Below are positions 16,869 through 62,774 of a DNA stretch of 64,000 nucleotides, one piece after another. A program made the position numbers and the translations under genes. Origin of the DNA: Candidatus Curtissbacteria bacterium (GTDB lineage: Bacteria; Patescibacteriota; Microgenomatia; Curtissbacterales; GWA2-41-24); NCBI GenBank assembly GCA_016183325.1, contig JACPEV010000013.1, positions 4,837-68,836 of the forward strand, in the 5' to 3' direction. Numbering within the stretch: position 1 is the stretch's first letter; each line of letters begins with the position of its first letter. The notes beneath the pieces are model-generated. The model saw only the letters and a list, made by a program, of their open reading frames with translations, searched no databases and was not told the DNA's origin.

Positions 16869-17279
16869 ATGCGATCGCAGAGGGCACTGAATTTTATGAA
16901 GGCACAGAATTACAATTACAAACATAGTAATTTAACCGGTAAAATAATTGAGCTGGCAATTAAAGTTCATAAAAATTTGGGTTCAGCATACGAGGAGAAG
17001 CTTTATCAACGAGCGCTTTATTTGGAGCTTCAAAGATCAGGCCTAAGGTTTGAAAGGGAAAAGGAAATCAGTATTAATTATGGTAACGTTAGAATTGGCA
17101 AAAAGAAGTTAGATTTTGTTGTAGACGGCAAGATAGTTGTTGAATTGAAGAAGATAGATGCTATTGATAAAGTTCACGTCGCACAGGTAGTGTCATACTT
17201 GAAAACTTTAGGACTTAGCGTTGGTCTAATTTTGAATTTTGGCAATAGCAAACTTGAAATAAAAAGAGTAGTAGTTTGA
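16869..17279 (+). CDS. GxxExxY-family protein (PD-(D/E)xK nuclease-like)
   Basis: LGSAYEEKLYQRAL...VDGKIVVELKK. A paralog lies at 21871-22260. Confidence 0.6.
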   Translation: MRSQRALNFMKAQNYNYKHSNLTGKIIELAIKVHKNLGSAYEEKLYQRALYLELQRSGLRFEREKEISINYGNVRIGKKKLDFVVDGKIVVELKKIDAIDKVHVAQVVSYLKTLGLSVGLILNFGNSKLEIKRVVV

Positions 17280-17297
17280 TATAACTTATATGTTATA

Positions 17298-17579
17298 TTG
17301 TTGAATATGACTGACTGGAAAAACCTTCGAAAAGAATTGTTAAAAGATCCTGAATTTAAAGTTGAATATGAGAAGATGCAGCCTAAGTTCGAAGCAGTTG
17401 CTGCAATAATTGAGGCTAGGATTAAGAAGGGTTTGACTCAAGAGGCACTAGCGAGAAAAATTAGAACTAAGCAATCAGCTATTGCTCGGATCGAGAGTGG
17501 GAATGCGAATCCATCGGTTGAGTTTTTGCAAAAATTGGCGGAGGCACTAGGAAAGAAGTTGGTAATTCAATTTAAATGA
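17298..17579 (+). CDS. XRE-family HTH protein (HigA-like antitoxin)
   Basis: GLTQEALARKIRTKQSAIARIESGNANPSVEFLQKLAEALGKKL. Very similar to the HigA-like gene at 53868-54170. Confidence 0.65.
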   Translation: MLNMTDWKNLRKELLKDPEFKVEYEKMQPKFEAVAAIIEARIKKGLTQEALARKIRTKQSAIARIESGNANPSVEFLQKLAEALGKKLVIQFK

Positions 17580-21870: not shown

Positions 21871-22260
21871 ATGGCAAAATTGGTTTATCCTGATTTAAGC
21901 TATAAAATAATGGGTATACTTTTTGAAGTACACAATAGATTAGGTGGCAATTTCGAAGAGAAATATTACCAGAGAGCGGTAGAAAAGTTGTTAAAACTGA
22001 ATAATTTGAAATACGATAGAGAACTACTAGCAAATATTTCTTTCGAAGGTGATAGGATAGGTAACTATTATTTAGATTTCCTGGTGGAGGATAAAATTAT
22101 TGTGGAACTTAAAACAGTGCCAAAACTCTTACCTATTCATTTCAGGCAAGTTCGATCTTATTTGAAAGTGAAAAAATTACAACTTGGGATTTTAGCTAAT
22201 TTTAGAGGAAATGGCCTTATTTATAAAAGAGTATTAAATCCCGTTGCACTTAATTATTAG
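21871..22260 (+). CDS. GxxExxY-family protein (PD-(D/E)xK nuclease-like)
   Basis: LGGNFEEKYYQRAV...VEDKIIVELKT. Paralog of 16869-17279. Confidence 0.6.
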   Translation: MAKLVYPDLSYKIMGILFEVHNRLGGNFEEKYYQRAVEKLLKLNNLKYDRELLANISFEGDRIGNYYLDFLVEDKIIVELKTVPKLLPIHFRQVRSYLKVKKLQLGILANFRGNGLIYKRVLNPVALNY

Positions 22261-36923: not shown

Positions 36924-38026
36924 TGTATAAGCGCGAACAAACTCGTCCGGTAAAAATAGGCAAGGTTACCATTGGGGGAGGCAATCTTGTTCGAGTTCAG
37001 TCAATGACGCAAACCCGAACGCATGACGTAGATGCAACCGTCAAGCAGATTCATGAGCTTGAGGAGGCAGGTTGTGAAATTATTAGGGTAACAGTTCCGG
37101 ATATGGAATCGGCAAAGGCCATAAAATCCATTAAAAAACAAATCAGAATTCCCTTGGTTGCCGATATCCATTTTCAGTATTTGCTGGCGATTGAGGCTGC
37201 TAAACAGGGTGTAGATAAAGTGCGAATTAATCCGGGCAACATTGGAGGAGTTGATCGAGTCAAAGAAGTCGTAAAGGTTTGCCGAGCGAAAAATATTCCG
37301 ATGCGAATTGGTGTCAATATGGGTTCTTTGGAGCGGGATTTATATGCCAAGTATGGGGGTTTTGGTGTGCCCAGAGTAATGGTCGAGTCGGCAACGCGTC
37401 ACATTAAAATTCTGGAAAGCCTCAAATTCTACAATATTGTGGTTTCCCTTAAGGGTGATAATCCGGTTATAGCCCGAGAGGCCTATATACTTTTTGCCAA
37501 ACGCTATAATTATCCACTGCATGTCGGGATTACTGAAGCCGGGACATTGTGGGCAGGTTCAATTAAATCTGCGGTGGGTATTGGTTCAATCCTTGCTGAG
37601 GGTATCGGAGATACAATTAGGGTCTCGATTGCCGATGATCCGAGAGAGCAGGTAAAAGTCGGATGGGAGATTCTTAAGTCAGCGGGTTTGAGACAGAAAG
37701 GTGTTGAAGTCATTGCGTGCCCAACCTGCGGGCGTACAGAAATTAATCTTATTGAATTGGCGAAAAAGGTCGAGGCGGTTGTTTCGCCTCTTGATGCTCC
37801 TATCAAAGTAGCAGTTATGGGATGTGTTGTTAACGGGCCCGGGGAAGCAAGTTTTGCCGATATTGGTGTTTGCGGAGGAAAGGGCCAGGGGGCAATATTT
37901 AAAAAAGGAAAACTGGTTAAAACTCTTAAGGAAGAAGATTTGTTGCCAGAATTTATTGACGAGATCAAAAAAGTTCTTGTCGAGAAGGGGTATAGAGGAG
38001 AAATCAAAAAACTTCAGTATGGTTAA
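36923..38026 (+). CDS. ispG: 4-hydroxy-3-methylbut-2-en-1-yl diphosphate synthase (GcpE)
   Basis: TIM-barrel block VTVPDMESAKAIKSIKKQIRIPLVADIHF, and the cluster Cys CPTCGRTEI...GCVVNGPGE. Confidence 0.9.
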   Translation: MYKREQTRPVKIGKVTIGGGNLVRVQSMTQTRTHDVDATVKQIHELEEAGCEIIRVTVPDMESAKAIKSIKKQIRIPLVADIHFQYLLAIEAAKQGVDKVRINPGNIGGVDRVKEVVKVCRAKNIPMRIGVNMGSLERDLYAKYGGFGVPRVMVESATRHIKILESLKFYNIVVSLKGDNPVIAREAYILFAKRYNYPLHVGITEAGTLWAGSIKSAVGIGSILAEGIGDTIRVSIADDPREQVKVGWEILKSAGLRQKGVEVIACPTCGRTEINLIELAKKVEAVVSPLDAPIKVAVMGCVVNGPGEASFADIGVCGGKGQGAIFKKGKLVKTLKEEDLLPEFIDEIKKVLVEKGYRGEIKKLQYG

Positions 38027-39017
38027 AAAAATACTTCTGGCTGCTCCTCGCGGGTTTTGTGCGGGGGTTGATCGGGCGATTGATGTGGTCGAGGCTACCT
38101 TAGCGATTTTTGGTCCGCCAGTTTATGTTAAGCATGCGATTGTGCACAATCTGCATGTTGTTGAGGATTTGGAAGTTAAAGGAGCAGTTTTTGTTGAAGA
38201 TTTGGATGAAATTCCTCCTAAATCAGTAGTGGTTTTTAGCGCACATGGCACAGATCCAGCTATAAAGGAAGAGGCAAAGAGACGCGGCCATAAAGTTATT
38301 GACGCGACTTGTCCTTTGGTTACCAAAGTCCATTTAGAAGCGGCAAGATATGCAAGAGAAGGGTATTTCATAATTTATGTAGGTCACAGAGATCATCCTG
38401 AGCCAGTCGGAGTTTTCGGAGAGGTGCCAAAAGGCACGATGACTTTAATTGAGAATGCTGACGAAGTGTCTAAAGTCAAAATTCCACAAAATGATAAATT
38501 AGTCTATCTAACCCAAACAACTTTGTCTATTTCTGACACACGTGAGACCGTTGAAGCGCTTATGCGGCGATTTCCAAATATTATTGCGCCACCTTCCTCT
38601 GACATTTGTTATGCGACCACCAATAGGCAAGCGGCAGCAAGGGAGCTGGCCAAATTATGTGATCTAGTTTTGGTAATTGGCTCGAAAACGAGCTCGAATT
38701 CACAACGCTTGCGGGAAGTCTGCGAGGAGGAAGGAGTGAGGGCCCATCTAATTGATGACGAGACGATGATTAATTCCGACTGGTTCAAGAATGTTAAGAC
38801 TTTAGGAATCACTTCAGGAGCTTCGGTACCAGAGTATCTGGTGAGTCAGCTGGTGCAGTTTATAAAAAAGAAAAACCCGAAGGCTTCTGTTGAGAACTTG
38901 GAGATTTTGCGCGAAGAGATTAAATTCCCTTTGCCTGATGATCTAGTCGCTTTGGCAAAACAATCAGAAAAGGGTGTTGGCTGGGTTGAAAAACATAGAG
39001 TGGCTTCACAGAGATAG
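38019..39017 (+). CDS. ispH: 4-hydroxy-3-methylbut-2-enyl diphosphate reductase (LytB)
   Basis: [24 protein letters not shown], with conserved Cys residues and HNLHVV. Start set at ATG 38019. Confidence 0.9.
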   Translation: [332 protein letters not shown]

Positions 39018-39048
39018 AGGGATAGCGACAGCAAGCAACTTGATATTT

Positions 39049-39348
39049 ATGATAGAATATGGCCAAATGCAAACAAGGGTTTTAAACTATCGAATTATTA
39101 TAGAGCCGGAAAAACAAGGCAAAAAGACAGTTTATAATGCTTATTGTCCGACTTTGGGTCTTGCTGACTGGGGCGATTCCATCGATGATGCAATCAAAAA
39201 CATTAAAGCACTCATAAAATTTCATGTTGAAAGCTTGCTTGAAGAAGAGTTAGAGGTGCCCCAGGAAAATACCGCACAAGAGATTATTACTGCGACTACG
39301 GTTTCAATTCAAGGATCAGGCAGCACGCTTCATGTAGCAGTGGGATGA
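39049..39348 (+). CDS. hicB: HicB-family antitoxin
   Basis: YRIIIEPEKQGKKTVYNAYCPTLGLADWGDSIDDAIKNIKALIKFHVE is the HicB/UPF0150 pattern. The start is uncertain (39049 or 39067). Confidence 0.6.
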   Translation: MIEYGQMQTRVLNYRIIIEPEKQGKKTVYNAYCPTLGLADWGDSIDDAIKNIKALIKFHVESLLEEELEVPQENTAQEIITATTVSIQGSGSTLHVAVG

Positions 39349-39569
39349 GTGGGCTACCCCAAGTCAGACCTAAAGAGTTGGTTAGAGCACTCGAAAAAGC
39401 TGGATTTAACAAAGGACGCCAGACTGGCAGCCACGTATTTCTTAAGCACCAGGACGGAAGACTAACTTCTGTTTCTATTCATCCAAAGCCAATTCCAACA
39501 GGTACACTGCGGGCTATTTTAAGACAGACAAAAATAAAGACGGAAGACTTAAAAAAGTTGTTAAGATAA
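39345..39569 (+). CDS. hicA: HicA-family mRNA interferase toxin
   Basis: PKELVRALEKAGFNKGRQTGSHVFLKHQDGRLTSVSIHPK is the HicA/YcfA signature. Overlaps hicB by 4 nt. Confidence 0.7.
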   Translation: MSGLPQVRPKELVRALEKAGFNKGRQTGSHVFLKHQDGRLTSVSIHPKPIPTGTLRAILRQTKIKTEDLKKLLR

Positions 39570-39582
39570 AATTCTGGGGTCT

Positions 39583-39663
39583 GACGATTTGGTGTCCCTG
39601 GCCAAACAGTCGGATCAGGGAATTGCTTTGGTCGAAAAGCACAAAGTTGTCATTCAACGATAG
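39583..39663 (+). pseudogene. duplicated, diverged 3'-end fragment of ispH
   Basis: Encodes DDLVSLAKQSDQGIALVEKHKVVIQR*. The genuine IspH C-terminus (38937-39017) reads [26 protein letters not shown]. Confidence 0.6.
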
Positions 39664-39673
39664 TTTCTCAAAC

Positions 39674-40774
39674 ATGGATTTCCAGACACATCTAAAAGAT
39701 TTCTTGGCCAGTTTTGAGCCATATGCCCAAAAATATTTTCAGAACAAAATCAAAGAAGTTTCCAAATATCATCCTTTAATCGTCCAGTTTTACAAAGACC
39801 TTGCCGATTTTTCCTCCGGAGGGAAAAGAATGAGGGCGTTTTTAGTTTATCTTGGATATTTGATAGGAACTCATCTGCGGTTCAACCCCTCTGATGGGTT
39901 GAACCTCCAAAAGGATTTTCAAAAAATTTTGCCGATTGCCTTGGCGATTGAGATCATTCACAGTTTCCTTTTAATTCACGATGACATTATCGATAAATCA
40001 GACATGCGGCATGGAGCGCCGACTATCCATAGGCGCTATGAGAAGCTAGTTGGTAGCCCGCCTGCCGTCCGCCTGAGGGACGAGGCGGGTCATTACGGAT
40101 TAAGTCAAGCCATCCTGCTTGGTGATATTGCTTGTTTTGAGGCGTTTAGTTTAATTAATTCGTCGTCTTTTGATAATGATCTTAAGGTAATTTGCCAAGG
40201 ACAACTTATTAAAACTCTTTTGAATACCGGATACGGAGAAGCTCTGGACGTTGAGGCACCTTACAGAGGGGCGACGTTAGCGCAGATTAGACAGGTAATG
40301 GACCTCAAGACGGCAAGATATAGTTTTGTGGGACCGCTGAGCTTGGGAGCAATTTTGGGAGGGGCAGGGAAAGAACAGATTAGCAGTTTGACTAAGTTTG
40401 GACTCTCTTGTGGGATGGCGTTTCAACTCAAAGATGATATCCTCGGAGTTTTTGGTGATGAGAAGGTTACAGGGAAGCCAATGGATTTCTCGGAAGGGAA
40501 AAATACAATGCTTATTTATAAAACTTATGAGCTTGTAAATGCAAAAGAAAAAGCATATTTAAAGAAAATTTGGGGGAACAAAAACGCAAATTCTGGAGAT
40601 TTAAAGCGAGTTGGGCAAATAATTAGGGATTGTGGAGCTTTGGCATGGTGTGAGAAGGAACAAGTGAAACTGGCGAATGCGGCAAAAAAGGTTATTTTTG
40701 ATATAACAAATGATAAAGAATTACAAATTATCTTTGAGCAAATTGCAGATTTCGTAATAGGCAGAGAAAAGTAA
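39674..40774 (+). CDS. polyprenyl diphosphate synthase (trans-isoprenyl diphosphate synthase, FPP/GGPP-type)
   Basis: First Asp-rich motif LIHDDIIDKSDMRHG and second motif FQLKDDILGVFGDE. Confidence 0.85.
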   Translation: MDFQTHLKDFLASFEPYAQKYFQNKIKEVSKYHPLIVQFYKDLADFSSGGKRMRAFLVYLGYLIGTHLRFNPSDGLNLQKDFQKILPIALAIEIIHSFLLIHDDIIDKSDMRHGAPTIHRRYEKLVGSPPAVRLRDEAGHYGLSQAILLGDIACFEAFSLINSSSFDNDLKVICQGQLIKTLLNTGYGEALDVEAPYRGATLAQIRQVMDLKTARYSFVGPLSLGAILGGAGKEQISSLTKFGLSCGMAFQLKDDILGVFGDEKVTGKPMDFSEGKNTMLIYKTYELVNAKEKAYLKKIWGNKNANSGDLKRVGQIIRDCGALAWCEKEQVKLANAAKKVIFDITNDKELQIIFEQIADFVIGREK

Positions 40775-40881
40775 CACAACCCCCCGCCGAATTTAACAAA
40801 GGGTGGGTTGAAAAAGAAGTCTTTTTGCGATATCCTTTTGATTAACCCTCAAGTGGGCATTGTATTGTTTGGCAAAAATTA

Positions 40882-41571
40882 ATGAGTAAGACGATTCCCG
40901 AACATGTAGTTATAATTCCTGATGGAAATCGACGTTGGGCCAAAAAACACGGCCTGGCGCCAATAGAAGGGCATAAAAAGGGTCTGGAGACAGCACTTTC
41001 AGTGGTTCGCGGTTCAAGAGACCTGGGTGTGAAGATTTTAACCCTTTGGGGTTTTTCGACTGAAAATTGGCGCAGACCTTCAATGGAAGTTGGTTATTTA
41101 ATGAAACTTTACACTGTGTTTTTTAAGAAACATACGAAGGAATTAATGCGGGAAGGAGTAAAATTTAACTGGCTAGGACGAAGGGATCGAGTGCCAAAGA
41201 CACTAAGACGAATTCTTGAAAAGATCGAGGCAGAGACTGAAAAGAACACTCGCTATATCCTTAATATTTGTTTAGATTACGGCGGAAGAGAAGAGTTAAT
41301 TGGTGTTTTTAAAAAACTTTTAAATCGTAAGATAAAGCCTTCACAGATTAACGAGCAGTTGATTTCCACAAATTTGCAGACGACTGGACTACCAGACCCG
41401 GATCTTTTGATTAGAACTTCGGGAGAAATGAGAACTAGCGGGATCATGCCATGGCAGACAATTTATACAGAGCTTTTCTTTTCTAAAGCTTATTTCCCAG
41501 ATTTTTCATTGGCGGAGCTTAAGCGAGCAATTGGTGATTTTGCCAGGCGCCAGAGACGATTTGGAGAATAG
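40882..41571 (+). CDS. uppS: undecaprenyl (cis-prenyl) diphosphate synthase
   Basis: VIIPDGNRRWAKK...LTLWGFSTENWRRP...IRTSGEMRTSG are UppS signatures. Confidence 0.9.
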   Translation: MSKTIPEHVVIIPDGNRRWAKKHGLAPIEGHKKGLETALSVVRGSRDLGVKILTLWGFSTENWRRPSMEVGYLMKLYTVFFKKHTKELMREGVKFNWLGRRDRVPKTLRRILEKIEAETEKNTRYILNICLDYGGREELIGVFKKLLNRKIKPSQINEQLISTNLQTTGLPDPDLLIRTSGEMRTSGIMPWQTIYTELFFSKAYFPDFSLAELKRAIGDFARRQRRFGE

Positions 41572-41655
41572 AAGTCAAAAAAAAGTATCACAAGTATCAA
41601 AGGTATCACAAGTACCACAAGCTTAGAAATATAAGCACTTGATAAGCCAATTCCC

Positions 41656-42093
41656 ATGAAGAAAAAGTTTAATAACGAGCCTTATGCCCGTCGAATCGAA
41701 AAGCCTTGGGGGTGGGAGATCCACTTTGTGCCTGACGATAAACCGTATATGGGGAAAATTCTTCATTTGAACGCTGGTGCAAGGCTTTCTTTGCAATATC
41801 ACGACGAGAAACTAGAAAGTTGGTTTTTACTGCGCGGGCGAGCGAAGCTCATTTGGGATGATGAGAATGGGAATCTTGTTGAGTTGGAACTTGAAACTGG
41901 AAAGGGTTACAGTTGTGAGGTTGGGCAAAGACATAGATTTGCAGGGATAACTGATTGTGACGTGATTGAAGTATCGACGCCGGAGATTGGGAAAACTTAC
42001 CGGCTTGATGATGACTATAATCGAGCCGGTCAAACAGAAGACGAAGCAGAGAGAGAACGCAGGAATAAGGGAATTCTGATAACTGATAAATGA
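41656..42093 (+). CDS. cupin-domain protein (mannose-6-phosphate isomerase-like small cupin)
   Basis: EKPWGWE...LSLQYHDEK...GQRHRF. The His/Glu metal ligands sit in a cupin arrangement. Confidence 0.6.
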   Translation: MKKKFNNEPYARRIEKPWGWEIHFVPDDKPYMGKILHLNAGARLSLQYHDEKLESWFLLRGRAKLIWDDENGNLVELELETGKGYSCEVGQRHRFAGITDCDVIEVSTPEIGKTYRLDDDYNRAGQTEDEAERERRNKGILITDK

Positions 42094-42208
42094 TCATCGA
42101 ACTCGAACCCGTATCGAGCTAGGAAAAAAGCTTGAAACGATATGGGATCGTCAAGCGTTAGACATTTTATTCAATGATCATGGAACAAAATGTTGATGGA
42201 ATTAATAG

Positions 42209-42820
42209 ATGAAGGACTTTACGCTTAAACATTATGCATCAAGAACTCACGAAAAAATGCGGGAGGTTCTGATGGATCCTAATGCAGTAGGGCCGGAGAT
42301 TCATTATCACATGGTGCGGGGAGGGACTGACCAGCGAAATATTACGACTTGGGAGCCGGGAACTGTTGGTGGGGAGTATATAAAAACATATGGGCATTAT
42401 CATGTTGGCAAGTTGGATGAGACGTATTGGGTGATATTTGGAGAAGGGGTGGTTTTGGTACAAAAGAGAGCCGTAGGAGTTGATGGAAGCCCAATCGACG
42501 ATGAAATAGAGCAAGCTTATGCTGTTCATGTTCGTCCGGGTGATGCATTGTTTATCCCTGCCGAGTGGGGACATTTGGTGGCTAATATCTCCAAGACGTT
42601 CTTTGTGACAGCTGATGACTCTCCGGTAAATTTTGATGAATCTAATCCTGTCTCTTTGCCGGGGCATGCGGATTATGAAGCTGTGAAGCGAATGCAAGGG
42701 TTTTGTTATTACATTGTAGAGAAAGGCGGAAAGCCTGCCTTGGTTAAGAATCCCAAGTACAAAAAGGTGCCTGAACTTGAAATTATCGAAGCTAAGGATT
42801 ACCCTTTGTCAAAGGACTAG
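42209..42820 (+). CDS. cupin-type glucose-6-phosphate isomerase (archaeal-type cPGI)-like
   Basis: TVGGEYIKTYGHYH...GEGVVLVQ...HVRPGDALFIPAEWGH resembles the cPGI motifs TxGxEYxKTxGHYH and xPxxxxH. Confidence 0.45.
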   Translation: MKDFTLKHYASRTHEKMREVLMDPNAVGPEIHYHMVRGGTDQRNITTWEPGTVGGEYIKTYGHYHVGKLDETYWVIFGEGVVLVQKRAVGVDGSPIDDEIEQAYAVHVRPGDALFIPAEWGHLVANISKTFFVTADDSPVNFDESNPVSLPGHADYEAVKRMQGFCYYIVEKGGKPALVKNPKYKKVPELEIIEAKDYPLSKD

Positions 42821-43238
42821 ACCAATTTCCTATATTAGGCTTACGAGCTTCCAATAAATCATGAAACAAAGTTCTCCTAAATTCAGTCTCAGCTTTTGGC
42901 ATGGGCTTGGGCCAATGATGAATTCTATAGGCCAAAGCAAGAGCAATTTCAGCTTGCCTTTTTTTTGCAAGCAAATATTTGAGCAGAGGTTTAAGAACAG
43001 GTATGACGTGAGTTCCAGTTACGCGCCACTTAGTTACAGGCAAATTTCTACCTCTTATCAACTCTGGCCAATAACTACCTCCGAATGTTTTCTGGAGAAG
43101 TTGCATTGGCTCTATATCCGTCATTCCTACTTCTACCATCGGTTTAAATTGATCTTTGCCATATTGAAAAGTTTTTCTTATAGAAATACAACCTTCGCCG
43201 TCAATAAGACCTGCGAGATAAGCATAAACAGTTTTCAT
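42792..43238 (-). CDS. free-standing LAGLIDADG-family homing endonuclease-like protein
   Basis: N-terminal YLAGLIDGEGCISI, a single LAGLIDADG motif of the homodimer type. Confidence 0.7.
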   Translation of the reverse strand: MKTVYAYLAGLIDGEGCISIRKTFQYGKDQFKPMVEVGMTDIEPMQLLQKTFGGSYWPELIRGRNLPVTKWRVTGTHVIPVLKPLLKYLLAKKRQAEIALALAYRIHHWPKPMPKAETEFRRTLFHDLLEARKPNIGNWSSPLTKGNP

Positions 43239-43336
43239 TTTAACTTGTGAGTTATATTATAAAAAATAATACCCGAATGAAACACGAATGTCAAATATAA
43301 ACATAATCACCATATTTAACTATAAAGGAGGTTAAG

Positions 43337-45151
43337 ATTTGCGGGATTTTTGGTTACGTTGGTAAACAGCGTGACGCTGCAAAGATTGTTTTTGAGGGTC
43401 TTAAGCGGCTTGAATACCGCGGTTATGATTCGTGGGGAATAGTTGCGGTGAGTGGAAAGTTGAAAGTTGAGAGTGGAAAATTATTAGTAGAAAAGCATGT
43501 GGGGAAAATCGGCAATTCAACTCTCAATTCTCAACTCTCAATTCTCAAATCAAGTATAGCTCTTGGCCACACGCGCTGGGCGACGCACGGGGGAGTGACT
43601 AAGGAGAATGCCCATCCACATTTAGATTGCAGCGGAAATTTGGCTTTGGTTCATAACGGCATTGTCGAAAATTATCAAGAGCTTAAAAAAAGCCTCAAAA
43701 AAAAGCATAAATTTAAATCTCAGACGGATTCGGAAGTGATAGTACACATGATCGAGGAATTGAGAGGCTTAATCTCTTCTAAGGTTGAACCTTCAACAAA
43801 GGTTCAACCTTTAAAAGATACTGTCAGGAAAGTGTTTTTGAAACTCACAGGACTTAACGCTATTGTAGTGATGAATGATGGAGAACTGGTTGTTGCTAAG
43901 AACGGATCTCCTTTAGTTTTGGGGATAGGCAGTGGTGAGTATTTAGTAGCTTCTGATGCGGCGGCGCTTTTGCCTCACACAAATAAAGTTATTTTCCTGC
44001 GAGACAACCAGATGGCAGAAATAACGGATAGTGGAGTAAATATTTTTGATATAGCCTCAGATGAGGCAGTAACACCAAAAGTAGAAATACTAAATTGGAA
44101 AATTGAAGAAGCAAATCTTGGAGGCCATAAACACTTCATGATCAAAGAAATTTACGAGCAGCCAAAGGTTATCAGGAACATATCAGAAACTTATATAGAC
44201 CAAATAAGTGATCTTTGTAAGGTAATCGAGAAAGCTCATGGCACATTTTTTATTGGGGCTGGAACCGCATTTAATGCTTGTCTTGCCGGGGCGTATCTTT
44301 TTTCAAAGATTGCAAAAGCGCATGTAAATACGATTGTCGCTTCCGAATTTAATTATCTGGAGCATTTTTTACATAAAGAAACTTTGGTGATTGCTCTTTC
44401 ACAATCCGGGGAAACAATCGACGTTATTGAGCCCTTGAAAAGGGCAAAAGAAAAAGGTGCCAAGATTGTGGCGATTGTAAATAATTTGGGCTCGACGATT
44501 TGGCAAATGGCAGATTATAAATTGTTACTTGGTGCCGGAGTTGAGATGGCGGTTGCTTCAACAAAAGCTTATGTTTCTAAACTTTCTGTTTTAATCTTGA
44601 TTGCATATGGACTCGTGAATAGACTGGACGAGGGAAGAAAATTGCTTGCAGAGGCTGCTGATGAGGTTGAAAGACTATTGTTCGAGGAAGTGGAAAACAT
44701 AAAAAAAATCGCAAAAATTTTAGCAGTCCACGATCATATTTTTACCATTGGTCGAGGACTTTCGTATCAAACGGCCCTTGAGGCTGCTTTGAAGATGAAA
44801 GAGGTTAGTTATATTCATACGGAAGGATTGGCTGGAGGAGAGCTGAAGCACGGGCCGATTGCATTAATTTCAAAAGGGACGCCGTGCGTTGTTTTTGCAC
44901 CAAACGATGAGACACATGAGGCAATTATTTCTAACGCCACCGAGATTAAAGCAAGAGGCGGGTTGATTATCGGGGTTGGGTCAAAAAAGTCAGAAGTGTT
45001 TGACGAATGGGTCCAAGTGCGAGATTTAGGGGACGCTTCTATAATTTGCAATGTTATTCCAGCACAGCTATTTGGTTATTTTTTGGCGATTGAGAAAGGT
45101 TTGGACCCGGATAAGCCAAGAAATTTAGCAAAGTCAGTCACTGTGAAATAA
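43337..45151 (+). CDS. glmS: glutamine--fructose-6-phosphate aminotransferase, apparently initiating at ATT
   Basis: Frame reads (I)CGIFGYVGKQRDAAKIVFEGLKRLEYRGYDSWGIV, with the Ntn Cys directly after the initiator, plus two SIS domains and C-terminal ...KSVTVK. AAGGAGG sits 5 nt upstream of ATT 43337. The nearest in-frame ATG (43448) would delete the catalytic Cys. Two in-frame simple-repeat inserts at 43450-43550. Confidence 0.8.
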   Translation: MCGIFGYVGKQRDAAKIVFEGLKRLEYRGYDSWGIVAVSGKLKVESGKLLVEKHVGKIGNSTLNSQLSILKSSIALGHTRWATHGGVTKENAHPHLDCSGNLALVHNGIVENYQELKKSLKKKHKFKSQTDSEVIVHMIEELRGLISSKVEPSTKVQPLKDTVRKVFLKLTGLNAIVVMNDGELVVAKNGSPLVLGIGSGEYLVASDAAALLPHTNKVIFLRDNQMAEITDSGVNIFDIASDEAVTPKVEILNWKIEEANLGGHKHFMIKEIYEQPKVIRNISETYIDQISDLCKVIEKAHGTFFIGAGTAFNACLAGAYLFSKIAKAHVNTIVASEFNYLEHFLHKETLVIALSQSGETIDVIEPLKRAKEKGAKIVAIVNNLGSTIWQMADYKLLLGAGVEMAVASTKAYVSKLSVLILIAYGLVNRLDEGRKLLAEAADEVERLLFEEVENIKKIAKILAVHDHIFTIGRGLSYQTALEAALKMKEVSYIHTEGLAGGELKHGPIALISKGTPCVVFAPNDETHEAIISNATEIKARGGLIIGVGSKKSEVFDEWVQVRDLGDASIICNVIPAQLFGYFLAIEKGLDPDKPRNLAKSVTVK

Positions 45152-45172
45152 ATTTCTTGTCTTGCGGTCCTC

Positions 45173-45196
45173 CCCCGCCCTTCGCGAAAGGCGGGG
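45173..45196 (+). terminator. GC-rich hairpin downstream of glmS (possible terminator)
   Basis: ccccgcc cttcgcgaaag gcgggg. There is no clear U-tract. Confidence 0.25.
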
Positions 45197-45298
45197 TGCG
45201 GGCCTAAAACCACGGAACATTGCGAAGAGTGTGACGGTTAAGTGATTGCGTTTATCGTTTATGGTTTATTGTTTATCGCACGAGTTTCGCACATGATG

Positions 45299-45384
45299 TC
45301 ATCCTGGAGCGAAGTGAAACGAAGCGATAGGATCTACTTTAAGAATTAAGATTCTATCGTGGTCGTTGCCACTCCAGAATGACA
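45299..45384 (+). repeat. palindromic element family A, copy A2, intergenic and itself nested in a second inverted repeat
   Basis: gtcatcctggagcgaagtgaaacgaagcgataggatc...gattctatcgtggtcgttgccactccagaatgac. Flanked by cacgagtttcgc (45281-45298) and gcgaaactcgtg (about 45404-45415). Confidence 0.8.
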
Positions 45385-45464
45385 GATGAAAGTAGTTTAG
45401 TGCGAAACTCGTGTATCGTTTGGTTTGGCAATGAACGATTAACAATTTACGATTAACTGTACAA

Positions 45465-46058
45465 ATGAAACTTGGAGCTAAACAATTAAGAGTGAGTGAA
45501 CCAAGCGAAGCTGATCTTAAAAAGATCAAACGGCGGGAGGTTTATATTATTTGTGACAATGTTTTGGATACTTATAATATCGGATCGATATTTCGCTTGG
45601 CGGATGCTCTGGCAGTTAAGTGCGTTTATCTGTGTGGTGGATCGGAAACTCCTCCAAATGCTCGGATTGCTAAGGCCAGTGTGGGGACTGATAAGTGGGT
45701 ACCATGGCAATATAGAGCAACAGCGGTCGAGGCGATTTTGGATCTCCGGTCCCGTCATTCTGGAGGGAGTGAAACGACCGATAGAATCTCAAGAGATCCT
45801 ATCGCTTCGCTCCAGGATGACAGGATAGGAATCAAGGTAGTTGCAATAGAGCAGAGCAAAAATAGTCAAGACTTTAGGAAAGTGGAGTATACAGAGCCCG
45901 TGGCTTTTGTGGTTGGGCATGAAACAGGAGGGGTATCAAAAGAAGCTTTGAAGATGGCGGATCAAATCGTGGAGATACCGATGTTTGGTATAAACCGATC
46001 ACTTAACGTTATGGTTTCTCTGGCTATTGTTTTGTATCAAGCCGTAGTAATGGATTAA
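45465..46058 (+). CDS. SpoU/TrmH-family RNA 2'-O-methyltransferase (SPOUT)
   Basis: VVGHETGGVSKEALKMADQIVEIPMFGINRSLNVMVSLAIVLYQ are SPOUT motifs 2-3. An in-frame family-A palindrome lies at 45754-45821. Confidence 0.7.
   Translation: MKLGAKQLRVSEPSEADLKKIKRREVYIICDNVLDTYNIGSIFRLADALAVKCVYLCGGSETPPNARIAKASVGTDKWVPWQYRATAVEAILDLRSRHSGGSETTDRISRDPIASLQDDRIGIKVVAIEQSKNSQDFRKVEYTEPVAFVVGHETGGVSKEALKMADQIVEIPMFGINRSLNVMVSLAIVLYQAVVMD
45754..45821 (+). repeat. palindromic element family A, copy A3, in-frame within the SpoU methyltransferase gene
   Basis: gtcattctggagggagtgaaacgaccgatagaatc tcaagagatc ctatcgcttcgctccaggatgac, translated as RHSGGSETTDRISRDPIASLQDDR. The reading frame differs from copy A1. 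Confidence 0.8.
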
Positions 46059-46060
46059 TC

Positions 46061-46594
46061 TCAATTGGGACTGATGGTATAACTAACTGTATTTGTTGAA
46101 ATGGGGCAAACGGTAGTATTTTGGGTTGGGTCTTTTTGGGAATCGTTTTGATTTTCAAGACAGGCAACTATTGAATAACCAGTGCAGGCGTTTGGCCCGC
46201 AGCTTGCGGGAGTTGGAGTGTAAGTATAAGCTGATCCGGTTTTGGGATCCTTTGGAACAGCTTTTATATAAGGATTTGATGCTGGGGAAAGATCCGGATT
46301 GGTCGAGGTTCCGGTTATGCCACAACTGCCTGAAACGTAAGTATCACAACTTGGATAATAATAGGCACCGGCGGTGTCTTGTCTGGCAAGCTCCAGAGCT
46401 TTTTTGGCGGCATCAAGATCTGTTTTGCGCCGGGAATCACGGCTTCTGGCTTGTGCTCCGCTGAAAGAGGCAACTGAAATTGTAGCTAAAATGCCGATAA
46501 TCGCGATAATGACTAATAATTCAATAAGAGTGAAGCCAGTGCGCCTTTGGCGCAAGTGATGAGTGATGAGTGATGAGTGATGAGTCGTGGGCAT
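46061..46594 (-). CDS. type IV pilin / pseudopilin (prepilin-type N-terminal methylation domain)
   Basis: GFTLIELLVIIAIIGILATISVASFSGAQARSRD is the class III signal and hydrophobic helix. A His-rich leader is encoded by (catcactcat) repeats. Confidence 0.75.
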   Translation of the reverse strand: MPTTHHSSLITHHLRQRRTGFTLIELLVIIAIIGILATISVASFSGAQARSRDSRRKTDLDAAKKALELARQDTAGAYYYPSCDTYVSGSCGITGTSTNPDLSPASNPYIKAVPKDPKTGSAYTYTPTPASCGPNACTGYSIVACLENQNDSQKDPTQNTTVCPISTNTVSYTISPN

Positions 46595-53867: not shown

Positions 53868-54170
53868 TTACCTAGAAATAAATTTAATTTCTAAATGAGA
53901 GTTTAATGCTTGAGCTAGTTTTTTGAGAAAACCTATTGAGGGATTTGCATTTCCTCTCTCAAGTCTTGAGATTACGGATTGTTTAGTCCCGATCTTTTGG
54001 GCAAGTTTGTCCTGAGTTAACCCTTTCTTTACCCTGGCATCGATCATGGCCCTGATAACAGCAAACTCTGGTTGCAGACGATCATATTCTGCCTTAATTT
54101 TAGGATTTTTGAGAGATTCTTTTAGAAAAACGTCAAAATCTAAATGTTTCCTATCTTTAGGTTGGATCAT
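53868..54170 (-). CDS. XRE-family HTH antitoxin (HigA-like)
   Basis: GLTQDKLAQKIGTKQSVISRLERGNANPSIGFLKKLAQAL. Downstream of the HigB-like gene on the minus strand. Confidence 0.65.
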   Translation of the reverse strand: MIQPKDRKHLDFDVFLKESLKNPKIKAEYDRLQPEFAVIRAMIDARVKKGLTQDKLAQKIGTKQSVISRLERGNANPSIGFLKKLAQALNSHLEIKFISR

Positions 54171-54180
54171 AGCATATATG

Positions 54181-54510
54181 CTATAAGATTTCTTTCATTC
54201 TGTCAAGTGCTATTTTTATTTCTTTGGCTGGTGTCTTTTGCATTTTCTTTTTAAATGCATGCAGCAGATAATATTCTCCATTTTTCATTGTATAGAAGAT
54301 TCTGACTGCGATTTTACCGGGGATACGAAGTTCATATAGATTAGATCTAAGCTTCTTTGCATAAGGAGGTTTTAGGAATGGACCACCATTTTTTAAGAGT
54401 AAAATTGAGTGAAGGATTTTAGCATAAGTGGTTTCGTCTTGATCCTTAATAAAATCTTCAACAGGAGACTCGCCTCGCGCATTCTGATAGGAATTTACCT
54501 TCCAAGCCAT
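54181..54510 (-). CDS. RelE/ParE-superfamily toxin (HigB / Gp49-like)
   Basis: 109 aa basic protein. Pattern AKILHSILLLKNGGPF...LYELRIPGKIAVRIFY...YYLLHAFKKK is typical of HigB/phage Gp49-like toxins. Upstream of the HTH partner (toxin-first order). Confidence 0.6.
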   Translation of the reverse strand: MAWKVNSYQNARGESPVEDFIKDQDETTYAKILHSILLLKNGGPFLKPPYAKKLRSNLYELRIPGKIAVRIFYTMKNGEYYLLHAFKKKMQKTPAKEIKIALDRMKEIL

Positions 54511-61262: not shown

Positions 61263-61726
61263 TTGTACTTCAAAGATTAGAATTTGCAAGCAATGTTTCG
61301 TGATTATTACGAGGTTCGGGATTGGTTGGAGAGTTTTATACCTTTAGTTTATGGGAAAGAAGAGTTGGGTTTGGCGCGGATTGAATACCTTTTAAAACTT
61401 CTTGGAAATCCTGAGCGAAAGTTTAAGTCTGTCCATATTGCGGGGACGAGTGGGAAGGGAAGTACGGCGTTTTATACGGCGAAGCTCCTTCAGTGGGTCA
61501 GTGAGTCAGTGAGTCAGAAAATCGGTGAATCAGTGAATCAGAATCACCGAAATACCGAAATACCGAATCACCGAATTGGTCTTCATGTTTCGCCGCATTT
61601 GGTGGATATTCGGGAGAGAATGCAGATATTTAGAAGTGGAAAGTGGAAAGTGGAAAGTGGAAAGTTTGAGGATTCATTAATGTCAATGGATCGATTCATT
61701 AGATTAATGAATGAAGTTAAGGCAGT

Positions 61727-61778
61727 GGTTGAGAAAATACAGAGAACAAAACCAGAATGAGAAAATACAGAGAACAAA
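61727..61778 (+). repeat. exact 26-bp tandem duplication inside the folC-like gene
   Basis: gagaaaatacagagaacaaaaccagaat is present twice in tandem. 26 is not a multiple of 3. Confidence 0.85.
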
Positions 61779-62774
61779 ACCAGAATTGACTCCTAGTTAT
61801 TTTGAGATTTTGGTGGCAGCGAGTTTTAAATATTTTGCAGAGGAGAAAGTGGACTGGGCGGTTGTGGAGGTAGGTCTTGGTGGGAGACTTGATGCGACAA
61901 ATGTCTTGCAACCAGAACTTACAGTGATTACTAATGTGGGGCTGGATCACACTGAGATTTTGGGAAAGACAGTTGAAAAGATTGCATGGGAAAAGGCGGG
62001 AATCATTAAGTCAAAAGTATCAAAAGTACCAAAGGGAGACAAACCCGGTTTGAATGAACTACAAACCGGGTTTGGGGTGAAAATGGGTATTCCAGTCATT
62101 ACAGCAGCGAGAGGAAAAGCGCTGAAAGTGATAGAGAAGGTGGCGAAAGAAAAGGGTGCAGAAGTGATTTTCCGATGGTCCATTTTTGGCATATGAGGCA
62201 GTAAAACAGCTAGGTTTATCTTTTTATTCTTCGAGCCTCTCGAGCAAGTCTCGAGGTAAACTGAGTCGAGAAGTTTCCTCTAAGAATATACTAGTTTCTA
62301 AGGTAGGTTCTCGACCCTTCGACAAGCTCAGGGCTCGAACAATAATTAAAAAGGTGTTTTCGGAAACTTTCCCGGGAAGATTTGAGGAGATTGACAGGGG
62401 TGTGATTTTGGATGGAGCGCATAATCCCGACAAAATTCGCTTTTTGATCAGGTTGATCAAAAAGACATTTGACATTAAACATTTGACATTTGACAAAGAA
62501 AAAAAGAAGTCAATGGTCAATGGTCAATGGTCAATTGTTCTTATACTTGCTTTCAAAAAGGGGAAAAATTGGAAAGAGATAATTGATATTTTGATGAAGA
62601 ATTTGCCTGTTAAAAAAGTGATAGCGACAAAGTTTTGGGCCAGTACGGATATGGGAAAATTTCAAGCGGTTGAACCGGAAGAAATAGCGGAATATATCAG
62701 AATTAAGAATTATGAAATAAGAATTAAGGATAAAGAAAATTCACAAGAGGCGGTTTTTGAGGCTGTAAGTCTTG

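What the first reader, a model, noticed from the sequence alone, without database searches (positions are those of the whole stretch)
38937..39663. hicBA toxin-antitoxin cassette inserted behind ispH, carrying a diverged copy of the ispH 3' end
The genuine IspH C-terminus ([26 protein letters not shown], 38937-39017) is followed by hicB-hicA. Then comes a second, nucleotide-diverged but protein-conserved copy (DDLVSLAKQSDQGIALVEKHKVVIQR*, 39583-39663). The pattern suggests an element that integrated at the ispH terminus and carried its own replacement gene end, presumably from another ispH allele. That fits a mobile TA cassette splitting the MEP/isoprenoid operon from the downstream prenyl-synthase genes.
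Basis: partly seen in the sequence, partly recalled or inferred. Interest (0 to 1): 0.65.

Follow-up and report, generated by a model that had tools for sequence, protein, structure and literature searches.

The report
hicBA insertion with replacement ispH end
In this Candidatus Curtissbacteria genome, a 647-base piece of foreign DNA carrying a toxin-antitoxin gene pair and its own copy of the last 34 codons of ispH landed inside the end of ispH, keeping that gene intact and leaving the old gene end as a dead remnant; this is a clear but fairly ordinary recombination scar.

Summary
ispH (38019-39017) ends in [26 protein letters not shown]. An intact hicB (39067-39348) and hicA (39345-39569) follow. 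A second ispH end lies at 39583-39663: 17/26 residues and 52/81 bases identical, same TAG stop.

Six Curtissbacteria relatives have ispH abutting the polyprenyl synthase gene with no hicBA, so this is an insertion.

The second copy keeps the native position, 10 nt before the synthase start. It is decaying: one frameshift and three residues never or rarely seen in 118 real IspH tails. It really begins at 39563 and supplies hicA's stop codon.

The functional tail has a separate history from the gene body. It is 78/81 bases identical to the tail of another lineage (L170), whose ispH body is only 77% identical.

No integrase, terminal repeats or shared core longer than 6 nt are present. Homologous hicBA pairs sit behind lon, pyrG, khpA and a B3_4-domain gene elsewhere. 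The two of these whose downstream DNA could be read (B3_4, khpA) have no duplicated gene ends.

My best reading is one-sided homologous plus illegitimate recombination of DNA from a related donor, not a self-integrating element. A second scar of the same type sits at the glmS end in this window.

The parts
38019..39017 (+). ispH (4-hydroxy-3-methylbut-2-enyl diphosphate reductase), intact, 332 aa. Its start overlaps the ispG stop.
   Evidence: Pfam LYTB 311 bits. NCBIfam NF002190 417 bits, above its cut-off of 389. 100% identical to a protein named Candidatus Curtissbacteria IspH.
38905..39017 (+). Tract of separate ancestry inside ispH. It is about 94% identical to L170 (107/114 over the last 38 codons including the stop; six mismatches within 38905-39017), against 77% for the rest of the gene. 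It contains the functional tail, copy 1 (38937-39017). The duplicated segment is 38916-39017.
   Evidence: Last 27 codons 78/81 nt and 25/27 third positions identical to L170. Binomial P about 1e-6 against the body rate. Mismatches are dense up to 38904, then only 6 up to the stop. L165, L166 and L167 show no such rise.
39018..39066 (+). Spacer between the ispH stop and hicB. It has no counterpart in relatives. It holds a weak promoter-like site, GCGACA-17-TATGAT, at 39025-39053.
   Evidence: The promoter-like count (3) is not above the shuffled expectation (2.1).
39067..39348 (+). hicB antitoxin, 93 aa from the conserved MQTRVLNYR start (an alternative ATG lies at 39049). It is a single-domain protein with no recognisable DNA-binding domain.
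   Evidence: Pfam HicB_lk_antitox E=1.4e-6, 28.9 bits. Homologs at 57-86% identity start at the equivalent Met.
39345..39569 (+). hicA toxin, 74 aa, intact, with the GSH motif. It overlaps hicB by 4 nt (ATGA). Its last codon (AGA) and its stop (TAA) come from the ispH remnant.
   Evidence: Pfam HicA_toxin 66.4 bits, covering positions 2-58 of 58. Homologs end in ...KKLL (L168 with a stop; P0121), whereas this one ends in KKLLR*.
39561..39564 (.). Right (illegitimate) junction between the incoming DNA and the resident ispH.
   Evidence: Read directly from the sequence. Homology to ispH codons EIKF begins at 39563, immediately after hicA's last conserved Leu codon.
39563..39663 (+). Displaced remnant of the resident ispH 3' end (copy 2). 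It reads (K)IKF, then a 1-nt frameshift, then DDLVSLAKQSDQGIALVEKHKVVIQR*. It is untranslated and decaying.
   Evidence: for the similarity. K12Q and S/T24I are never seen, and W16L is seen in 2%, of 118 real tails. Each is a single-base change, and the likelihood falls in the bottom 5%. The TAGTTT...ATG spacing to the next gene resembles L165.
39674..40774 (+). Polyprenyl diphosphate synthase gene, which directly follows ispH in relatives.
   Evidence: Pfam polyprenyl_synt 166 bits. Homologs align from residue 2-4.
40882..41571 (+). Undecaprenyl diphosphate synthase (UPPS), the next conserved neighbour.
   Evidence: Pfam Prenyltransf 247 bits. Syntenic in L001, L085, L086, L166 and L177.

Best explanation
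The ancestor of this strain carried ispH followed directly by the polyprenyl synthase gene. DNA from a related Curtissbacterium, in which a hicB-hicA pair lay just behind ispH, recombined into this site. On the left it crossed over by homology inside ispH, at or before 38905. On the right it joined illegitimately, at the very end of hicA, to the resident ispH 34 codons before its stop (39561-39564).

The result is a net insertion of about 647 nt (38916-39562). It consists of a donor-type ispH end, a 49-nt spacer, hicB and hicA. ispH stays functional because the incoming DNA supplies the conserved C-terminal tail. The resident tail was pushed 646 nt downstream and is now an untranslated, frameshifted remnant abutting the synthase gene.

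This is the geometry of homology-facilitated illegitimate recombination (HFIR) seen in naturally transformable bacteria. HicA is presumed to be an mRNA-cleaving toxin neutralised by HicB, so the pair could stabilise itself once acquired.

Shown: the insertion, the two alleles, the decay of copy 2, and the separate ancestry of copy 1. Inferred: the donor arrangement, the uptake route and the toxin-antitoxin activity.
For: 1. Empty sites. ispH is followed by the synthase within 0-50 nt in L165 (86% IspH identity), L001, L085, L086 and L177.
2. Copy 2 keeps the native position: stop, 10 nt, then the synthase ATG, with the same TAGTTT motif as L165.
3. Copy 2 is decaying. It has a frameshift between IKF and DDLV and three single-base changes at near-invariant positions.
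4. Copy 1 has separate ancestry. It matches L170 at 78/81 nt, against 76.8% for the body, with P about 1e-6 and a sharp switch at 38904/38905.
5. Divergence between the copies (52/81 nt; third positions 10/27 identical) equals that between tails of different species (45-67/81). It therefore predates the event.
6. Both flanks share the same near relative. L165 is 86% identical in IspH and 70% in the fast-evolving synthase, where other pairs are 38-62%. This argues that the flanks are resident and the middle is the insert.
7. hicA lost its own stop at the junction, since homologs end in KKLL.
8. The insert contains no recombinase, terminal repeats or long shared core.
9. GC content of the insert is like the flanks, fitting a related donor.
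10. [quoted passage not shown]
Against: - No donor arrangement (ispH with tail 1, then the same spacer and hicBA, with no remnant) was found.
- L170 has the tail, but its sequence diverges right after TAGA and its contig ends 8 nt later.
- The L170-like tract begins only 11 nt before the duplicated segment, so the visible homologous anchor is short.
- Direction cannot be proven. The same structure would arise if tail 1 were resident and [hicBA + tail 2] came in.
- Natural competence of this organism was not examined.
- Microhomology at the joint cannot be defined without the donor sequence.
Confidence: 0.55

Rival explanations
1. A small, integrase-less or trans-mobilised circular cassette [ispH end + hicBA] integrated into ispH, either by a single Campbell-type crossover or by site-specific recombination. 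It would use its gene-end copy as a homing arm or att site.
For: A single crossover of a circle carrying a gene-end fragment gives exactly this direct, diverged duplication flanking the cargo. The left edges of both copies share AGAT(T/A)AAATTC. hicB homologs at 57-86% identity sit at five different loci, each just behind a housekeeping gene: ispH, lon, pyrG, a B3_4-domain gene and khpA. This shows evolutionary mobility of the family.
Against: There is no recombinase in or near the insert. The longest in-register exact match between the copies is 6 nt, and they are only 64% identical, which is poor for RecA-mediated or site-specific exchange. L168 and L176 show no duplicated gene ends around their hicBA. 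The exact HicA sequence occurs only in this strain and this context. There is no match in plasmids, phages or IMG/VR contigs. hicA's stop codon was clipped at the junction, which suggests an imprecise joint.
Confidence: 0.15
2. The foreign part is the downstream side. hicBA had earlier inserted cleanly behind ispH, whose native tail is tail 1. A later incoming fragment, beginning inside another lineage's ispH end (tail 2) and carrying the synthase gene, replaced the resident downstream genes. It would have joined illegitimately at the hicA end. It may have extended about 5.6 kb to the second scar at the glmS end (45152-45245).
For: Tail 1 matches the family consensus and the closest relatives at 22-25/26, whereas tail 2 reaches 20/26 at most. 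The synthase gene is highly variable and evidently exchanged among Curtissbacteria: L085-L086 are 78% identical in IspH but 81% in the synthase, while L165-L166 are 86% and 48%. A second tail scar of matching polarity lies 5.6 kb downstream at glmS.
Against: L165 is the nearest relative for both the ispH body (86%) and, nearly, the synthase (70%, against 68% for the best full-length hit). This is not expected if the synthase block were foreign. A separate recombination would be needed to explain the 96% identity between tail 1 and L170, and it would have to end within the last 16 nt of homology. The odd residues of tail 2 are single-base changes at invariant positions plus a frameshift, which fits decay in place.
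Confidence: 0.12
3. An in-situ duplication of the ispH end accompanied the hicBA insertion (a long target duplication). The downstream copy then diverged neutrally.
For: The direct-repeat geometry fits. Copy 2 shows some signs of relaxed constraint.
Against: 14 of 17 conserved residues use different codons, and differences are concentrated at third positions (7/5/17). That is the pattern of long divergence under purifying selection, not neutral decay. Neutral decay to 64% identity should have destroyed the reading frame and the stop. The near-identity of copy 1 to L170 is unexplained.
Confidence: 0.03
4. An assembly chimera joined two strains' ispH ends.
For: Metagenome-assembled genomes of CPR (Candidate Phyla Radiation) bacteria often mix strains. 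In one run the contigs break inside hicB.
Against: Eight contigs from five independent runs are 100% identical across ispG-ispH-hicBA-remnant-synthase-UPPS.
Confidence: 0.01

Closest known systems
HicAB type II toxin-antitoxin systems (Pfam HicA_toxin PF07927 / HicB_lk_antitox PF15919)
   Same: Adjacent small genes with a 4-nt overlap. HicA has the full domain and the GSH motif. HicB has the N-terminal HicB-like fold signature. As is typical of TA pairs, this one is patchily distributed and sits at different loci in relatives, and several relatives carry decayed toxin genes.
   Different: The gene order is hicB then hicA. HicB is short (93-99 aa) with no detectable RHH/HTH DNA-binding domain. 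There is no NCBIfam hit for either protein. Activity is untested.
Homology-facilitated illegitimate recombination (HFIR) during natural transformation (Acinetobacter baylyi, Streptococcus pneumoniae, Pseudomonas stutzeri)
   Same: One end of the new DNA is continuous with a homologous (here homeologous) gene segment of foreign ancestry. The other end is an imprecise joint with no recombination-site features. The outcome is a net insertion with replacement of a short resident segment.
   Different: It is known from laboratory selections. Here it is inferred from a natural scar in an uncultivated CPR bacterium. The donor, the microhomology and competence have not been observed. The visible anchor is short.
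Integrative elements that insert into the 3' end of a gene (tRNA, tmRNA or protein-coding) and restore it with an element-borne copy (attL/attR)
   Same: The target gene is kept intact by an incoming replacement end, and the displaced original end remains on the far side of the insert.
   Different: There is no integrase, no identical att core and only 545 nt of cargo. The repeats are only 64% identical.
Tn7-like insertion downstream of glmS (attTn7)
   Same: This is relevant only to the second scar noticed at glmS. The glmS 3' end is a classic hotspot for acquisition of foreign DNA.
   Different: Tn7 inserts downstream of the stop without duplicating the coding end. No Tn7 genes or ends are present here.

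Membership tests
HicAB type II toxin-antitoxin | Toxin with a HicA domain (dsRBD-like fold, conserved His) | tested here: met
   PF07927 at 66.4 bits (cut-off 27), covering model positions 2-58 of 58. The GSHVFLKH motif is present (sequence).
HicAB type II toxin-antitoxin | Adjacent antitoxin with a HicB-like domain | tested here: met
   PF15919 at 28.9 bits (cut-off 27), E=1.4e-6, a marginal hit. hicB homologs at 57-86% identity were recovered; in the contigs examined each is followed by a hicA gene or a decayed hicA.
HicAB type II toxin-antitoxin | Operon organisation with overlapping or abutting genes | tested here: met
   The hicB stop and hicA start overlap in ATGA at 39345-39348.
HicAB type II toxin-antitoxin | HicB C-terminal DNA-binding domain (RHH/HTH) for autoregulation, present in many but not all HicB proteins | tested here: not met
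   No second Pfam domain was found. The protein is only 93-99 aa.
HicAB type II toxin-antitoxin | RNase toxicity neutralised by the antitoxin | not testable with these tools
   Requires expression experiments.
Site-specific integrative element in a gene 3' end | Integrase or recombinase encoded by the element | tested here: not met
   The only ORFs in 39018-39569 are hicB and hicA. The neighbours are isoprenoid genes.
Site-specific integrative element in a gene 3' end | Identical core sequence at both junctions (attL/attR) | tested here: not met
   The longest in-register exact match is 6 nt (AAATTC). The copies are 64% identical.
Site-specific integrative element in a gene 3' end | Target gene restored by an element-borne end, with the displaced end retained | tested here: met
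Transposon / IS / MITE | Terminal inverted repeats, a short target-site duplication and a transposase | tested here: not met
   No inverted repeats bracket the insert and there is no transposase.
HFIR scar | Donor-type sequence continuous from a homologous anchor into the heterologous insert | tested here: met
   The L170-like tract 38905-39017 runs straight into the spacer and hicBA.
HFIR scar | Illegitimate joint at 3-10 bp microhomology | tested here: inconclusive
   The joint is localised to 39561-39564 and hicA's stop codon is clipped. The donor sequence is unknown, so microhomology cannot be read.
HFIR scar | Recipient takes up DNA (natural competence) | not tested
   Competence genes were not examined. 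The window covers only 64 kb.

The most novel reading that the evidence does not exclude
Tail scars of this kind (a functional gene end of foreign ancestry, a short cargo, then the displaced resident end, protein-conserved but saturated at synonymous sites) may be recurrent in CPR genomes. Two occur within 6 kb here, at ispH and glmS, among 118 ORF tails tested. They could mark either a routine mode of one-sided, transformation-driven gene acquisition, or a class of recombinase-free mini-cassettes that use ends of essential genes as homing arms. Either way they would give a sequence-only footprint for measuring DNA uptake and recombination in uncultivated bacteria.
Probability: 0.2. Interest if true: 0.6.

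Novelty: new member of a known kind. Interest (0 to 1): 0.35.

Why it matters
The finding documents, base by base, how a toxin-antitoxin pair entered a conserved isoprenoid operon of an uncultivated CPR bacterium without destroying an essential gene. The incoming DNA brought a replacement gene end, and the old end remains as a datable remnant.

It also shows that the ispH/synthase boundary is a recombination hotspot in Curtissbacteria. At this boundary, relatives carry NUDIX genes, an unknown 242-aa ORF, or synthase-NUDIX fusions.

With the second scar at glmS, it suggests a simple search criterion: a protein-conserved but DNA-diverged copy of a gene's tail just downstream of that gene. This could be applied genome-wide to quantify illegitimate or homeologous recombination in organisms that cannot be grown. 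By itself it is an instructive example, not a new biological principle.

Tried and rejected
- The genome-contig scan with IspH returned only one Curtissbacteria locus (L001) among 80, because the patterns were too general. The metagenome scan gave four useful loci.
- A concatenated HicB+HicA query found HicB relatives but few HicA relatives, and did not return the window's own proteins.
- An exact-sequence look-up of HicA found only the same strain and context.
- P0123's contig (hicBA behind lon) had no retrievable DNA.
- Looked for duplicated gene ends around homologous hicBA in L168 and L176 and found none. L171 is too short to tell.
- Tested whether P0083 (L177), whose tail shares the rare Gly15, carries the tail 1 allele or hicBA. 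It carries neither (64/81 nt, empty site).
- No similarity to plasmids, phages or IMG/VR contigs.
- No Rfam family in 38500-46200.
- Promoter- and terminator-like sites are not above the shuffled expectation.
- No compositional anomaly in the insert.
- No bracketing inverted or direct repeats other than the tails.
- Rejected the reading that copy 2 is the synthase N-terminus (wrong frame, stop codon, and homologs start at 39674).
- Rejected in-situ duplication on the codon-position pattern.
Full report
**Observation.**
- ispH runs from 38019 to 39017 and ends in [26 protein letters not shown] (38937-39017).
- A 49-nt spacer follows, then hicB (39067-39348; an alternative ATG lies at 39049) and hicA (39345-39569).
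- A second ispH end, DDLVSLAKQSDQGIALVEKHKVVIQR*, lies at 39583-39663.
- The polyprenyl synthase gene starts at 39674.
- Pfam supports all assignments: LYTB 311 bits, HicB_lk_antitox 28.9 bits (just above its cut-off of 27), HicA_toxin 66.4 bits, polyprenyl_synt 166 bits and Prenyltransf 247 bits.
- The two ends share 52/81 bases and 17/26 residues, with the same TAG stop. Of the 17 shared residues, 14 use different codons. Differences fall 7/5/17 over the three codon positions.
- The match is far beyond chance: tblastn E=2e-8 against the whole window and 3e-10 against the downstream 1.5 kb.
- The organism is a Candidatus Curtissbacteria bacterium (CPR/Patescibacteria), since the IspH is 100% identical to a protein so named.
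- Eight contigs assembled independently from five sequencing runs are 100% identical across the whole structure, so it is not an assembly chimera.

**It is an insertion.**
- In five relatives ispH is followed by the polyprenyl synthase gene within 0-50 nt, with no hicBA. These are L165 (86% IspH identity), L001, L085, L086 and L177.
- L170 (84-87%) has an ATG 3 nt after the ispH stop, after which its contig ends.
- Two further relatives (L166, L167) carry NUDIX genes at this boundary, and L169 has an unknown 242-aa ORF before the synthase. The boundary is therefore variable in this group.

**Which copy is which.** Copy 2 keeps the native relation to the synthase gene: stop, 10 nt, ATG, with the same TAGTTT as L165.

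39563-39574 (AAG ATA AAA TTC) matches ispH 38916-38927 (GAG ATT AAA TTC, EIKF) at 10/12 positions. It is shifted by one base relative to the DDLV frame, and the PLP codons in between are degraded and one base short. The remnant is therefore frameshifted. hicA's last codon (AGA) and its stop (TAA, 39567-39569) lie inside it. hicA homologs end in ...KKLL (L168 with a stop codon), whereas this one ends in KKLLR*. This places an imprecise joint at 39561-39564.

Against 118 real Curtissbacteria IspH tails, copy 2 has three residues that are never or hardly ever seen: K12Q (0%), W16L (2%) and S/T24I (0%). Each is a single-base change, and its likelihood falls in the bottom 5%. Copy 1 has no such residue. 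Copy 2 is thus a displaced, decaying gene end and copy 1 is the working one.

**Separate ancestry of the working tail.** Against L170, the ispH body (codons 1-295) is 76.8% identical, with 52% identity at third positions. The last 27 codons are 78/81 identical, with 25/27 third positions matching. Mismatches are dense up to 38904 and then number only six up to the stop (binomial P about 1e-6). L165, L166 and L167 show no such rise. After TAGA the two sequences diverge.

The two copies in the window differ as much as tails of different Curtissbacteria species do (45-67/81). The two ends were therefore already distinct alleles when they came together. An in-situ duplication followed by neutral drift does not fit.

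**Which side is foreign.** The synthase evolves fast in this group: 38-62% identity between genomes whose IspH proteins are 71-86% identical. Yet L165 is both the closest IspH (86%) and about the closest synthase (70% over the 195 residues available; the best full-length hit is 68%). This favours both flanks being resident and the middle (tail 1 + spacer + hicBA, 38916-39562, 647 nt) being the incoming piece. The reverse direction cannot be excluded. In that case tail 1 and hicBA are resident, and tail 2 plus the synthase gene came in.

**Mechanism.**
- The insert contains only hicB and hicA. It has no recombinase, no bracketing inverted repeats and no shared core longer than 6 nt. Its GC content matches the flanks.
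- hicB homologs at 57-86% identity sit just behind other housekeeping genes: lon (P0123), a B3_4-domain gene (L168), pyrG (L171) and khpA in the rpsP-trmD operon (L176). The family does move over evolutionary time.
- L168 and L176 have no duplicated gene ends.
- Several relatives have decayed hicA genes: a premature stop in L171, an internal deletion in L168, and fused or frameshifted forms in P0121, P0125 and P0131.
- The exact HicA protein occurs only in this strain.
- Nothing similar is found in plasmid, phage or IMG/VR collections.

The anatomy has donor-type sequence continuous from a homologous gene segment into heterologous cargo, and an imprecise joint on the other side that clips a stop codon. 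This is what homology-facilitated illegitimate recombination produces in naturally transformable bacteria (PMC6382021 and the primary papers it cites). I judge this the most likely route (about 0.55). The rivals, in order, are:
1. A Campbell-type or site-specific homing cassette (0.15).
2. Replacement of the downstream block (0.12).
3. In-situ duplication (0.03).
4. Assembly artefact (0.01).

**Consequences.** ispH remains full length with a consensus tail. In relatives the synthase start abuts or overlaps the ispH stop, which suggests translational coupling. Here the nearest translated stop (hicA) lies 105 nt upstream, so the synthase must initiate on its own. No terminator-like site separates the genes on the + strand, and a promoter-like site before hicB is no better than chance. 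Co-transcription is therefore plausible but untested. The hicBA pair looks intact and could act as an addiction module. That is inferred from family membership only.

**A second scar.** Scanning the last 30 residues of 118 ORFs against their downstream 1.5 kb found only one other clean case. glmS (43448-45151) ends in ...KPRNLAKSVTVK*. Beginning 56 nt downstream of the glmS stop (55 nt intervening, including a GC-rich hairpin) lies KPRNIAKSVTVK* (45207-45245). This copy is 24/39 bases identical, with Ser TCA/AGT and Arg AGA/CGG codon-family switches. It has the same architecture with a tiny cargo. This suggests the process is general recombination in this lineage rather than a property of hicBA. 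I could not examine relatives at that site.

**Verdict.** The idea of a self-mobile element targeting ispH is not supported. This is a well-resolved example of known processes: acquisition of a HicAB toxin-antitoxin pair and a one-sided recombination scar. It is of moderate interest, mainly as a template for detecting such scars in uncultivated bacteria.

Noticed in passing
window 45113-45245: A second gene-tail scar. glmS ends in KPRNLAKSVTVK* (stop at 45149-45151). A protein-conserved, DNA-diverged copy, KPRNIAKSVTVK*, lies at 45207-45245 (24/39 nt identical). The two are separated by 55 nt that contain a GC-rich hairpin, CCCCGCC-CTTCGCGAAAG-GGCGGGG (45173-45196), which is unique in the window.
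   Followed up: partly
window 45277-45415: Inverted repeat CGCACGAGTTTCGCAC / GTGCGAAACTCGTGTA flanking about 110 nt, between the glmS remnant and a SpoU methylase gene (45465-46058). It is MITE-like or a structured element. It has no Rfam match and no other copy in the window.
   Followed up: partly
window 42792-43238 (-): A free-standing LAGLIDADG endonuclease ORF (Pfam LAGLIDADG_1, 25.6 bits) that overlaps the 3' end of the cupin-type glucose-6-phosphate isomerase gene (42209-42820). At about the same position relative L177 has a 23S_rRNA_IVP gene instead.
   Followed up: no
window 61731-61786: A perfect 28-nt tandem duplication (GAGAAAATACAGAGAACAAAACCAGAAT twice) that shifts the frame and splits a gene into ORFs 61284-61760 and 61711-62196.
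   Followed up: no
window 53868-54510 (-) and 16869-17576 (+), 21871-22260 (+): Other small, possibly mobile or defence-related genes. There is a Gp49/HigB-like toxin with an HTH_3 antitoxin-like partner (54181-54510 / 53868-54170). A paralogous HTH_3 gene (17280-17576) lies next to a PDDEXK_3 nuclease gene (16869-17279), which has a paralog at 21871-22260.
   Followed up: no
window about 38121-38201 (ispH codons about 35-61): A patch of ispH that is unusually conserved at synonymous sites across several relatives: third-position identity 0.75-0.9 against L170, L165 and L167, compared with about 0.5 for the gene overall. Unexplained.
   Followed up: no
L166 3652-4788; L167 3271-3834; L169 101-829; proteins P0155, P0159, P0161 and others: The ispH/synthase boundary is variable in Curtissbacteria. 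Some relatives have NUDIX genes inserted, one has an unknown 242-aa ORF, and many have the polyprenyl synthase fused to a NUDIX domain (proteins of about 520 aa).
   Followed up: partly
L171 523-578; L168 4315-4452; proteins P0121, P0125, P0131: In relatives the hicA toxin gene of this hicBA family is often inactivated, by a premature stop, an internal deletion, or HicB-HicA fusions or frameshifts. hicB is retained in these cases.
   Followed up: partly
L084 end / L174 start (window 39156-39185): In run SRR12113383 the assembly breaks inside hicB with a 30-nt overlap between the contigs. This hints at a graph branch, possibly another hicB variant in the community.
   Followed up: no
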